From assembly GCF_009914755.1 (NCBI RefSeq), contig NC_060928.1: a DNA stretch of 64,000 nt. One strand, 5' to 3'. The notes beneath the pieces were generated by a model, which saw only the letters and a list, made by a program, of their open reading frames with translations, did not search any database and was not told where the DNA came from. The position numbers and the translations under genes were made by a program. Origin of the DNA: the human T2T-CHM13v2.0 reference genome, Homo sapiens. This document shows, one piece after another, positions 19,023 through 36,716 of this stretch; position 1 is the first letter of the stretch; each line of letters starts with the position of its first letter.

Positions 19023-22000
19023 GGGGCTGGAGCCAAGATGGCCGAATAGGAACAGCTCCGCTCTACAGCTCCCAGCGTGAGTGACGCAGAAAACGGGTGA
19101 TTTCTGCATTTCCATCTGAGGTACCGGGTTCATCTCACTAGGGAGTGCCAGACAGTGGGCGCAGGACAGTGGGTGCAGCACACCGTGTGCGAGCCGAAGC
19201 AGGGCGACGCATTGCCTCACTCGGGAAGTGCAAGGGGTCAGGGACTTCCCTTTCCTAGTCAAAGAAAGGGGTTACAGACAGCACCTGGAAAATCAGGTCA
19301 CTCCCACCCCCATACTGAGCTTTTCCGATGGGCTTAAAAAACGGCACACCAGGAGATTATATCCCGCACCTGGCTCGGAGGGTCCTAGGCCCATGGAGTC
19401 TCGCTGATTGCTAGCACAACAGTCTGAGATCAAACTGCAAGGCAGCAGCGAGGCTGGGGGAGGGGCACCCACCATTGCCCAGGCTAGCTTAGGTAAACAA
19501 AGCAGCAGGGAAACTCGAACTGGGAGGAGCCCAACACAGCTCAAGGAGGCCTGCCTGCCTCTGTAGACTCCACCTCTGGGGGCAGGACACAGACAAACAA
19601 AAAGACAGCAGTAACCTCTGCATACTTAAGTGTCCCTGTTTAAGAGCTTTGAAGAGAGCAGTGGTTCACCCAGCACGCAGCTGGAGATCTGAGAACGGGC
19701 AGACTGCCTCCTCAAGTGGGTCCCTGACCCCTGACCCCCGAGCAGCCTAACTGGGAGGCACCCCCCAGTAGGGGCAGACTGACACCTCACACCGCCGGGT
19801 ACTCCTCTGAGACAAAAATTCCAGAGGAGCTATCAGGCAGCAGCGTTTGTGCTTCACAAAAATCCGCTGTTCTGCAGCCACCGCTGCTGGTACCCAGGCA
19901 AACAGGGTCTGGAGTGGACTTCTAGAAAACTCCAACAGACCTGCAGCTGAGGGTCCTATCTGTTAGAAGGAAAACTAACAAACAGAAAGGACATCCACAC
20001 CAAAAAACCATCTGTACATCACCATCATCAAAGACCAAAAGTAGATAAAACCACAAAGATGGGGAAAAAACAGAGCAGAAAAACTGGAAACTCTAAAAAG
20101 CAGAGCACCTCTCCCCCTCCAAAGGAATGCAGCTCCTCACCAGCAACGGAACAAAGCTGGACAGAGAATGACTTTGATGAGTTGAGAGAAGAAGCCTTCA
20201 GACGATCAAACTACTCCGAGCTACAGGAGGAAATTAAAACCAAAGGCAAAGAAGTTGAAAACTTTGAAAAAAATTTAGGCGAGTGTATAACTAGAATAAC
20301 CAACACAGAGAAGTGCTTAAAGGAGCTGATGGAGCTGAGAACCAAGACTCGAGAACTATGTGAAGAATGCAGAAGCCTCAGGAGCCAATGCGATCAACTG
20401 GAATAAAGGGTATCAGTGATGGAAGATGAAATGAATGAACTGAAGCGAGAAGGGAAGTTTAGAGAAAAAAGAATAAAAAGAAACAAACTCCAAGAAAAAT
20501 GGGACTATGTGAAAAGACCAAATCTACGTCTGATTGGTGTACCTGAAAGTGATGGGGAGAATGGAACCAAGTTGGAAAACACTCTGCAGGATATTATCCA
20601 GGAGAACTTCCCCAATCTAGCAAGGCAGGCCAACATTCAGACTCAGGAAATACAGAGAATGCCACAAAGATACTCCTCGAGAAGAGCAACTCCAAGACAC
20701 ATAATTGTCAGATTCACCAAAGTTGAAATGAAGGAAAAAATGTTAAGGGCAGCCAGAAAGAAAGGCAGGGTTACCCACAAAGGGAAGCCCATCAGACTAA
20801 CAGCTGATCTCTCGGCAGAAACTCTACAAGCCAGAAGACAGTGGGGGCCAATATTCAACATTCTTAAAGAAAAGAATTTTCAACCCAGAATTTCATATCC
20901 AGCCAAACTAAGCTTCATAAGTGAAGGAGAAATAAAATACTTTACAAACAAGCAAATGCTGAGAGATTTTGTCACCACCAGGGCTTCCCTAAAAGAGCTC
21001 CTGAAGGAAGCACTAAACATGGAAAGGAACAACTGGTACCAGCCACTGCAAAATCATGCCAAATTGTAAAGACCATCGAGGCTAGGAATAAACTGCATCA
21101 ACTCACGAGCAAAATAACCAGCTAACATCATAATGACAGGATCAAATTCACACATAACAATATTAACTTTAAATGTAAATGGACTAAATGCTCCCATTAA
21201 AAGACACAGACTGGCAAATTGGATAAAGAGTCAAGACCCATCAGTGTGCTGTATTCAGGAAACTCATCGCACATGCAGACACACAAAAGCTCAAAATAAA
21301 AGGATGGAGGAAGATCTACCAAACAAATGGAAAACAAAAAAAGGCAGGGGTTGCAATCCTAGTCTCTGATAAAACAGACTTTAAACCAACAAAGATCAAA
21401 GAGACAAAGAAGGCCATTAAATAATAGTAAAGAGATCAATTCAACAAGAAGAGCTAACTATCCTAAATATATATGCACCCAACACAGGAGCACCCAGACT
21501 CATAAAGCAAGTCCTGAGTGACCTACAAAGAGACTTATACTCCCACATATTAATAATGGGAGACTTTAACACCCCACTGTCAATATTAGACAGATCAACA
21601 AGACAGAAAGTTAAAAAGGATACCCAGGAATTGAAGTCAGCTCTGCACCAAGCGGACCTAATACCCATCTACAGAACTCTCCACCCCAAATCAACAGAAT
21701 ATACATTTTTTTCAGCACAAAACCACACCTATTCCAAAACTGACCACATAGTTGGAAGTAAAGCACTCCTCAGCAAATGTAAAAGAACAGAAATTATAAC
21801 AAACTCTCTCTGAGACCACAGTGCAATCAAACTAGAACTCAGGATTAAGAAACTCACTCAAAACCACTCAACTACATGGAAACTGAACAACCTGCTCCTG
21901 AATGACTACTGGGTACATAACGAAATGAAGGCAGAAATAAAGATGTTCTTTGAAACCAACAAGAACAAAGAAACAACATACCAGAATCTCTGGGACATAT

Positions 22001-35800: not shown

Positions 35801-36716
35801 TTGGAAAAGTGCAGTATTAGGGTGGGAGTGACCCAATTTTCCAGGTGCTGTCTGTCACCCCTTTCTTTGACTAGGAAAGGGAATTCCCTGACCCTTGCAC
35901 TTCCTGAGTGAGGCGATGCCTCGCCCTGCTTCGGCTCACGCTGGGTGCGCTGCACCCACTGTCCTGCACCCACTTTCCGACACTCCCCAGTGAGATGAGC
36001 CTGGTACCTCAGTTGGAAATGCAGAAATCACTCATCTTCTGGGTCGCTCATGCTGGGAGCTCTAGACTGGAGCTGTTCCTATTTGGCCATCTTGGCTCCA
36101 CCCTCCAAGATCTGTATATTGAGACAGGGAAATTGCAACAGAGAAAGAATAATTCACACAGACCCGGCTGTGTGGGAGACCAGAGTTTTATTATTACTCA
36201 GATCAGTCTCCCCAAGCATTTGGGTGTCAGAGTTTCTAAGGACGACTTGGTGGGGGGAAGCCAGTGAACCAGGAGTGCTAATTGGTTAGGTAGGAGATGA
36301 AATCATAGGGAATTGAAGCTGTCTTTTTGTGCTGAGTCAGTTCCTGGGTGGGGACCACAAGATCAAATGAGCCACTTTATCAATCTGGGTGATGCCAGCT
36401 GGTCCATCAAGTGAAGGTTTGCAAAAACATCTCAAACACTGATCTTAGGAGTAGTTTAGGGAGGGTCAGAATCTTGTAGACTCCAGCTTCATGACTCCTA
36501 AACCATAATTTCTAAACTTGTGGCTAATTTGTTAGTCCTACAAAGGCAATCTAGTCTCCAGGCAAGAAGGAAGTTTGTTTTGGGAAAGGGCTGTTATCAT
36601 CTTTGTTTTAAATTATAAACTAAGTTCCTCCCAAAGTTAGTTCAGCCTATGCCCAGGAAGGAACAAGGACAGTTTGGAGGTTAGAAGCAAGATGGAGCTC
36701 AGTTATAATTTTGCAT
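29856..36716 (-). mobile_element. LTR8-type solo LTR split by the L1 (29856-29902 and 36107-36716)
   Basis: tgtaaccacccaatgggttcaccttgcccactgcctaga continues after the L1 as gagacagggaaattgcaacagagaaagaataattcac...cagttataattttgca. Confidence 0.8.
29917..36106 (-). mobile_element. Full-length L1 (L1PA4-like), coding-dead
   Basis: Reverse 5' end ctatttggccatcttggctcc at ~36079-36099; ORF1/ORF2 fragments (432-aa RT piece 31380-32678); poly-T; AAGATCTG on both flanks (29895 and 36107). Confidence 0.97.

What the first reader, a model, noticed from the sequence alone, without database searches (positions are those of the whole stretch)
19023..36106. Two inverted full-length L1s share private mutations: patchy gene conversion across a 17-kb inverted repeat
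Seen: the + L1 (19023-25190) and the - L1 (29917-36106) are separate insertions with different TSDs, and differ at many sites. Yet 20716-20946 is 100% identical to the reverse complement of 34207-34437 (231 bp), while the next ~50 bp have about 6 differences. Both copies carry the same departures from the L1PA consensus as I recall it. In ORF1 these are ARKKGR (vs AREKGR) and ARRQWG (vs ARREWG). In ORF2 they are KENTIKW (vs KEDTNKW; 23511-23520 / 31571-31580), FSTELEK (vs FFTELEK) and KSCCCK (vs KSCCYK; 24691 / 30391). They also share two 1-nt ORF2 deletions: CTGAACCAA (22675 / 32409) and CCAACCAAAT (24755 / 30328). Established: L1 cis-preference means a source element should not carry ORF2 frameshifts. 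Inference: these changes arose after insertion and were copied between the arms in several tracts, as in palindrome-arm concerted evolution.
Basis: partly seen in the sequence, partly recalled or inferred. Interest (0 to 1): 0.85.

Follow-up and report, generated by a model that had tools for sequence, protein, structure and literature searches.

The report
Gene conversion between two neighbouring L1s
Two old, dead L1 retrotransposons that landed separately, head-away from each other, in an ADGRL3 intron have since copied short stretches of sequence into one another, a known kind of repeat-to-repeat gene conversion shown here unusually cleanly.

Summary
A (19023-25190, +) and B (29917-36106, -) are separate L1 insertions with different target-site duplications. 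They belong to different L1PA sub-lineages and are only 92.7% identical overall, no closer than unrelated copies.

Even so, they share a 231-bp identical run and rare variants. Exact-pattern scans of the 3.1-Gb genome gave:
- ORF1 three-variant 22-mer: only A and B.
- ORF2 "KENTIKW" 20-mer: only A and B, against 7007 copies of the common form.
- FSTELEK 20-mer: A, B and one other.
- T-deleted forms: 6 copies, against 8237 with the T.
- C-deletion: 25 copies.

Two claimed variants are not private: KSCCCK has 398 copies and ARRQWG has 234. B also carries an extra A just after the T deletion, so its frame is kept there.

Best reading: non-allelic gene conversion in at least 4-5 short patches, each at most about 350 bp, with no homogenisation of the arms as a whole. 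Direction and dates are unresolved because no primate orthologues were available. This is a new member of a known kind, of moderate interest.

The parts
19023..25190 (+). L1 copy A, full length (6168 bp), of the younger L1PA type. ORF1 and ORF2 are broken by stops and frameshifts. Its target-site duplication AAGAAAAAGACA lies at 19011-19022 and 25191-25202.
29917..36106 (-). L1 copy B, full length (6190 bp), of the older L1PA type and heavily broken. Its target-site duplication AAGATCTG.. lies at 29893-29900 and 36107-36114. It holds a private tandem array at 33455-33541.
25203..29892 (.). 4.7-kb spacer between the two 3' ends (tail-to-tail). It holds two Alu-like repeats in direct orientation (about 25811-26107 and 27952-28251).
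20716..20946 (+). Tract 1 in A (ORF1 3' half). It is 231 bp with 0 differences from B and carries 4 shared rare variants (20758, 20766, 20767, 20839).
34207..34437 (-). Tract 1 in B, the partner of A 20716-20946.
23334..23563 (+). Tract 2 in A (ORF2). It is 230 bp with 1 difference from B and carries the double variant at 23511 and 23518 (KENTIKW).
31528..31757 (-). Tract 2 in B, the partner of A 23334-23563.
22671..22687 (+). Patch with the shared 1-nt (T) deletion in A. A shifts reading frame here.
32404..32421 (-). The same T deletion in B, followed by one extra A three bases on, so that B keeps its frame.
23630..23649 (+). Patch with shared variants 23638 and 23646 (FSTELEK) in A. The partner is B 31442-31461.
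24678..24768 (+). Patch in A near the ORF2 3' end. It holds shared 24694 (KSCCCK, not private), 24712 (a CpG-type site) and the shared 1-nt C deletion (motif at 24746-24768). The partner is B 30324-30414.
21195..21195 (+). Single shared transversion (partner B 33958). It is rare genome-wide, so it could be a chance coincidence.
23213..23213 (+). Single shared transversion (partner B 31878). It is rare genome-wide, so it could be a chance coincidence.

Best explanation
A and B are two separate retrotransposition events from different L1PA sub-lineages. They lie tail-to-tail, 4.7 kb apart, in an ADGRL3 intron.

After both were in place, DNA breaks or nicks in one copy were repaired using the nearby inverted copy as template. 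This is non-allelic (interlocus) gene conversion without crossover, most simply by synthesis-dependent strand annealing within the chromatid or with the sister chromatid.

Each event overwrote at most a few hundred bases. It carried the donor's post-insertion mutations, including two 1-nt deletions, into the other copy. At least 4-5 patches are seen over 4 kb of ORF1 and ORF2.

Two patches (231 bp with 0 differences, 230 bp with 1) look much younger than the elements. Others, such as the T-deletion patch, have since picked up further private changes.

Shown: independent insertion, different lineages, and shared variants that are unique or near-unique in the genome. Inferred: the repair mechanism, the number of events, and their timing. 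Direction is unresolved.
For: 1. Independent origin. The two copies have different target-site duplications.

2. Different lineages.
- A and B differ at 75 non-CpG sites where both alleles are common among 58 other copies.
- At 85 sites that separate the A-like group from the B-like group, A has its own group's state at 73 and B at 62 (ladder).
- A-B distance is 7.3%. B against other near-full-length copies is 6.3-9.3%.

3. Whole-genome exact-pattern counts.
- ORF1 22-mer with 3 variants: 2 matches, A and B.
- KENTIKW 20-mer with 2 variants: 2 matches, against 7007 for the common form.
- FSTELEK 20-mer: 3 matches.
- T-deleted forms: 6, against 8237 with the T.
- C-deleted form: 25.

4. Control. 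A double variant that A shares with an unlinked copy (L045, another chromosome) occurs in 9 copies on 9 chromosomes. The A-B haplotypes, in contrast, are confined to the two neighbours.

5. Tract 20716-20946. Among 171 pairs of 19 copies, pairwise differences have a median of 13. Only A-B has 0 and no other pair has 2 or fewer. A and B each differ from the majority at 4 sites, and they are the same 4. The edges are sharp: 9 and 6 differences in the flanking 50 bp.

6. Rare-allele sharing. B shares 10 of A's 100 rare alleles. The next best copy shares 6 of 86, and the mean of the others is 1.6%. By the pairwise count there are 14 shared rare sites, 12 of them non-CpG, including 5 transversions.

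7. No net crossover. The target-site duplications are still paired, and each copy keeps its lineage states on both sides of every patch.
Against: - No orthologue or second haplotype was available, so no change over time was seen directly and no donor could be named. The likelihood ratio for A as donor is only 2.7 and 3.4 for the two tracts.
- The run-length permutation test is not specific. It gave p<=0.01 for 3 of 11 control pairs involving A or B, including one longer run (A-L055, 136 concordant variable sites), and for 1 of 30 pairs between groups.
- Among 642 pairs with at least 6% divergence, one unlinked pair (A-L036) has a longer identical run of 258 bp.
- Doubleton counts in the 60-copy sample are high for A-B (7), but one unrelated old pair also reaches 7.
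- Single shared variants are rare but dispersed: 24, 57, 234 and 398 copies. One or two of the single-site patches may be coincidence.
- The comparison copies were picked by likeness to A. No B-like copies could be fetched.
Confidence: 0.85

Rival explanations
1. Common descent. A and B both come from one rare source element, or one is a retro-copy of the other, and that source already carried the shared variants.
For: The shared variants are unique or near-unique in the genome, as daughters of one private source would be.
Against: - The patches are interleaved with 75 non-CpG lineage differences. For example, 19 of them lie between the 21195 and 22678 patches.
- A is closer to many unlinked copies (3.6-6%) than to B (7.3%).
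- Two daughters of a source that left no other copy would have had to land 4.7 kb apart in 3.1 Gb.
- The shared changes include two ORF2 frameshifts. By the established cis-preference of L1, cited here from general knowledge, a source element should not carry these.
Confidence: 0.05
2. Chance. The same mutations hit both copies independently at mutable sites.
For: - Single shared variants recur elsewhere, in 24 to 398 copies.
- Unlinked pairs share up to 6-9 alleles that are rare within the sample.
Against: - About 1-2 chance coincidences are expected from the 1.6% mean sharing, against 14 sites plus 2 deletions observed.
- 12 of the 14 sites are non-CpG and 5 are transversions.
- The double variant has a frequency of 2 in 7009.
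- The variants sit inside the longest identical runs.
Confidence: 0.03
3. Assembly or polishing artefact. Reads from one L1 were used to correct the other.
For: None from these tools.
Against: - The copies differ by 7% with sharp tract edges, and there are many private differences right up to the tracts.
- The older patches carry later private changes, which an artefact would not produce.
- From general knowledge: the source genome is effectively haploid and was assembled from long reads.
Confidence: 0.02
4. Exchange tied to crossovers. Repeated inversion of the spacer by recombination between the inverted L1s, with conversion at the crossover points and an even number of flips.
For: Inverted L1PA pairs are listed as the repeats at the breakpoints of human polymorphic inversions (PMC3961182, table passage seen).
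Against: Target-site duplications are paired as at insertion, and each copy keeps its own lineage states 5' and 3' of every patch. So no net crossover is visible, and an even number of flips at the same places is less simple.
Confidence: 0.05

Closest known systems
Non-allelic gene conversion between neighbouring Alu elements (Aleshin and Zhi 2010, as summarised in PMC6598467; Alu survey in PMC8230782; passages read)
   Same: Independently inserted retrotransposon copies less than 10 kb apart share non-diagnostic mutations. The exchange is short and non-reciprocal.
   Different: Here the partners are 6-kb L1s of different sub-lineages at 93% identity. Several separate patches lie within one pair. 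The shared changes include frameshifting 1-nt deletions.
Arm-to-arm gene conversion in large palindromes, such as those of the human Y chromosome (recalled). An in-sample example is L050/L051, an inverted chrY L1 pair.
   Same: Inverted repeats on one chromosome with a short spacer exchange sequence.
   Different: Palindrome arms are kept near-identical along their whole length. L050/L051 share 35 doubletons in 4.4 kb. A and B are 92.7% identical and homogenised only in patches.
[quoted passage not shown] Seen only as a reference entry in PMC2996329; the paper itself is not held.
   Same: It supplies the mechanism: a broken L1 copies sequence from another L1.
   Different: That was an experimental break in mouse cells with dispersed donors. 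Here it is a germline, evolutionary record with one adjacent donor.
Interlocus gene conversion in segmental duplications (recalled)
   Same: Short tracts, paralogue-specific variants moved between copies, and dependence on distance and identity.
   Different: The partners here are not duplicates of one locus. They are two separate insertions of a mobile element.

Membership tests
Non-allelic (interlocus) gene conversion between dispersed repeats | The two sequences are paralogous copies at different loci and not one duplicated locus. | tested here: met
   The target-site duplications differ. The inverted homology ends at the L1 edges. The copies belong to different sub-lineages.
Non-allelic (interlocus) gene conversion between dispersed repeats | Shared derived variants that are absent from other family members. 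| tested here: met
   Two multi-variant motifs are found only in A and B in 3.1 Gb, against 7007 copies of the common form. The deletions occur in 6 versus 8237 copies, and in 25 copies. Two variants failed this test, with 398 and 234 copies.
Non-allelic (interlocus) gene conversion between dispersed repeats | Discrete tracts bounded by retained differences (a mosaic). | tested here: met
   There are 0 differences in 231 bp, flanked by 9 and 6 per 50 bp. Each patch is bounded within 46-330 bp by differences at which both alleles are common. Some of these bounds are CpG sites.
Non-allelic (interlocus) gene conversion between dispersed repeats | Change seen along a phylogeny: orthologous copies before and after, with a donor and an acceptor. 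| not testable with these tools
   No other primate genome or human haplotype is held. The donor test from mutation load was indecisive.
Palindrome-type concerted evolution | Arms kept near-identical along their whole length by frequent conversion. | tested here: not met
   Overall identity is 92.7%, and about 87% in the 5'UTR. The A-B distance is no smaller than B against unlinked copies.
Inversion by recombination between inverted repeats | Hybrid repeats and swapped flanks after a crossover. | tested here: not met
   The target-site duplications are still paired, and lineage states are continuous in each copy. An even number of flips cannot be excluded.

The most novel reading that the evidence does not exclude
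The two cleanest tracts (0 differences in 231 bp, 1 in 230 bp) are young relative to the elements. About 9 differences would be expected in 231 bp if the exchange dated from A's insertion. They may therefore be specific to the human lineage or even still polymorphic. That would make this inverted L1 pair a currently active intrachromosomal recombination site in an ADGRL3 intron. Such a site could also flip the 4.7-kb spacer recurrently, and it would allow a direct estimate of the L1-L1 conversion rate at 93% identity.
Probability: 0.2. Interest if true: 0.5.

Novelty: new member of a known kind. Interest (0 to 1): 0.35.

Why it matters
- It is a clean, countable case showing that neighbouring L1s of different ages exchange sequence after insertion.
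- Such exchange distorts age estimates based on divergence and subfamily calls.
- It spreads inactivating mutations between copies.
- It marks inverted L1 pairs as places where homologous repair acts, and so as candidates for inversion.
- Whole-genome motif counting on a complete assembly gives a simple way to tell exchange between neighbours from sub-lineage variants.
- It does not change what is known about the mechanism.

Tried and rejected
- **Run-length (Sawyer-type) permutation test.** A-B gave p<2e-4 in ORF1 and ORF2. Control pairs also reached p<=0.01 (3 of 11, and 1 of 30), so I do not rest on it.
- **Apparent A-like stretch in B's 5'UTR (19683-19740).** This is an alignment ambiguity in a tandem 7-bp unit. 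I make no claim of exchange in the 5'UTR, where coverage was only 3-13 copies.
- **The 67-bp 'gap in A'.** It is a private tandem array in B, not a shared feature.
- **Site 22332/22333.** It is a CpG-decay pair, so I did not count it as evidence.
- **Donor direction from private mutation load.** Likelihood ratios were 2.7 and 3.4, which is indecisive.
- **Hotspot 13-mer CCNCCNTNNCCNC.** There was one match in the region, in B's G-rich 3'UTR, and 3 in the window against 0.68 expected. This is uninformative.
- **DNA-query searches of the genome.** Neither listed the other arm among the 40 scored hits, so they cannot be used to show absence.
- **Literature searches.** They listed no paper on this locus or on exchange between adjacent inverted L1PA copies. 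Subscription journals are mostly not held.
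Full report
**What is there**

The inverted homology in 17-38 kb of the window is confined to two full-length L1s.
- A runs 19023-25190 on the + strand.
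- B runs 29917-36106 on the - strand.
- They lie tail-to-tail, with a 4.7-kb spacer that holds two Alu-like repeats.
- A is flanked by AAGAAAAAGACA (19011-19022 and 25191-25202).
- B is flanked by AAGATCTG.. (29893-29900 and 36107-36114).

Both are long dead: their ORF1 and ORF2 are cut into many open pieces.

**Checking the observation**

A global alignment gave 5661 matches, 448 mismatches and 140 gap columns, or 92.7% identity. The 5'UTR is at about 87% and ORF2 at about 94-95%.

The longest identical run is exactly the one reported, A 20716-20946 against B 34437-34207 (231 bp). The next runs are 175 bp (A 23389-23563) and 134 bp (A 23699-23832). The 50 bp on either side of the 231-bp run hold 9 and 6 differences.

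One detail differs. At 22675 both copies lack a T that every listed haplotype of the 58 other copies has, but B also has one more A three bases on. B therefore stays in frame (open 32783-31383) while A shifts frame.

**Comparison copies**

The window's own genome (3.1 Gb) could be searched.
- Searches gave 58 other L1PA copies (L002-L030, L032-L060). I aligned them to A and B.
The comparison set is therefore chosen by likeness to A.
- Neither DNA-query search listed the other arm among its 40 scored hits. I did not use that kind of search to argue absence.

**A and B are not relatives of a special kind**

The 58 copies form a ladder of successive L1PA types at 125 linked sites.
- A sits with L032/34/35/36/59.
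- B sits with an older group (L038/39/45/49/53/55 and others).
- At 85 sites that separate the two groups, A has its own group's state at 73 and B at 62. Seven of B's 20 departures are one ambiguous indel.
- A and B differ at 75 non-CpG sites where both alleles are common among the other copies.
- A-B distance is 7.3%. A against the others is 3.6-10.6% and B against the others is 5.0-9.3%.
- Private substitution load is 121 of 6156 sites for A and 167 of 6107 for B.

From recalled subfamily ages, this would fit roughly L1PA4-like and L1PA5/6-like elements. I did not test those names.

**Shared rare variants**

Against the 58 copies, 14 substitution sites have A = B with the allele in at most 8% of the others. 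Twelve are non-CpG and five are transversions. The two 1-nt deletions come on top.

Exact-pattern scans of the whole genome then gave the following counts.

| Motif | Copies genome-wide |
|---|---|
| ORF1 22-mer with three variants (ARKKGR plus two silent changes) | 2 (A and B) |
| ORF2 20-mer with two variants (KENTIKW) | 2 (A and B); common form 7007 |
| FSTELEK 20-mer | 3 |
| T-deleted forms | 6; with the T 8237 |
| C-deleted form | 25 |
| Single variant at 21195 | 24 |
| Single variant at 23213 | 57 |
| ARRQWG | 234 |
| KSCCCK | 398 |

The last two are dispersed and are not private, although none of the 24-25 sampled copies has them.

**Controls**

- A double variant that A shares with an unlinked copy (L045) is found in 9 copies on 9 chromosomes. 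The A-B haplotypes, in contrast, are confined to the two neighbours.
- B shares 10 of A's 100 rare alleles. The next copy shares 6 of 86, and the mean over 55 copies is 1.6%. The reverse comparison gives 10 of 153 against a next best of 6 of 122.
- In the ORF1 3' half, A-B has the longest identical run of 171 pairs (231 bp; the next is 142 bp).
- Within the tract, A-B is the only pair with 2 or fewer differences, against a median of 13. A and B each differ from the majority at the same four sites and nowhere else.

Weaker or contrary results:
- Sample doubletons are 7 for A-B, but also 7 for one unrelated old pair.
- One unlinked pair has a longer identical run, 258 bp at 6.1% divergence.
- The permutation test on run lengths (p<2e-4 for A-B) also 'detects' 3 of 11 and 1 of 30 control pairs at p<=0.01.

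The run lengths alone are therefore only suggestive. The case rests on the neighbour-only haplotypes.

**Anatomy of the exchange**

The shared variants fall into patches:
- ORF1 20716-20946
- 21195
- the T deletion at about 22678
- 23213
- 23511/23518, inside a 230-bp stretch with one difference
- 23638/23646
- 24694-24758

Between them, A and B keep their own lineage states. For example, 19 non-CpG lineage differences lie between 21195 and 22678, and 11 lie between 23646 and 24694. Each patch is bounded within 46-330 bp, though some of the bounds are fast-decaying CpG sites.

If the two single-site patches are discounted as possible coincidence, 4-5 separate patches remain.

No net crossover is visible. 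The target-site duplications are paired as at insertion, and lineage states are continuous in each copy.

**Timing and direction (inference)**

With about 2% private change per copy since A's insertion, about 9 differences would be expected in 231 bp if the exchange were as old as A. None is seen. Tract 1 therefore probably dates from the last third of A's residence. Tract 2 is similar, with 1 difference in 230 bp.

The T-deletion patch has since gained an extra A in B and a CpG change in A within 10 bp, so it looks older. Exchange therefore seems to have happened more than once.

The number of shared variants per tract slightly favours A as donor, with likelihood ratios of 2.7 and 3.4. This is not decisive.

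**Mechanism**

The most likely mechanism is non-crossover homologous repair of a break in one L1, using the adjacent inverted L1 as template. Short tracts of a few hundred bases are what PMC3961182 states for mammals (passage). Patchy mismatch repair of one long heteroduplex could also give several patches. The data do not separate the two.

**Relation to what is known**

- Exchange between nearby transposable elements is established for Alu, with higher rates below 10 kb (PMC6598467 and PMC8230782, passages).
- Inverted L1PA pairs are listed at the breakpoints of human inversions (PMC3961182, table passage).
- Break repair in a LINE from other LINEs was shown experimentally by Tremblay et al. 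2000. I saw this only as a reference entry, and the paper is not held.
- Five literature searches listed nothing on this locus.

**Verdict**

This is a real and well-supported example of a known process, so it is a new member of a known kind. Two of the seven 'private' variants are not private.

Interest is moderate. It would rise if ape genomes or human haplotypes show the young tracts to be recent or polymorphic.

Noticed in passing
window 33455-33541 (copy B, - strand): B has a private tandem array, about 3 copies of a unit of about 21 bp, adding 67 bp inside its ORF2 endonuclease region. None of the 15 other copies displayed over this stretch has it, and neither does A.
   Followed up: partly
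window 32404-32421 (copy B): B has one extra A three bases after the shared T deletion, which puts B back in frame for a 467-codon open stretch (32783-31383). This is most likely chance in a dead element.
   Followed up: partly
L050 and L051 (own genome, contig C24, 14922257-14924799 + and 14931224-14933766 -): This is an inverted pair of L1 pieces about 6.4 kb apart on C24 that share 35 variants found in no other sampled copy. It behaves like arms of one duplicated or homogenised inverted repeat and served as an in-sample contrast.
   Followed up: no
window 19805-19931 (A 5'UTR; element positions about 783-909): Four of the youngest-type comparison copies (L037, L041, L043, L044) lack this segment of about 125 bp, which A and B have. 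From recall, it resembles the known 5'UTR deletion of younger L1PA types.
   Followed up: no
window 22013-22045 (copy A): A double variant that A shares with L045 occurs in 9 copies on 9 contigs, four of them numbered 13, 14, 15 and 21. It may be a small dispersed sub-lineage or may reflect duplicated regions.
   Followed up: no
window 25811-26107 and 27952-28251: There are two Alu-like repeats in direct orientation inside the spacer between the L1s. Further Alu-like copies at 17577-17880 and 18340-18575 pair with them as inverted repeats.
   Followed up: no
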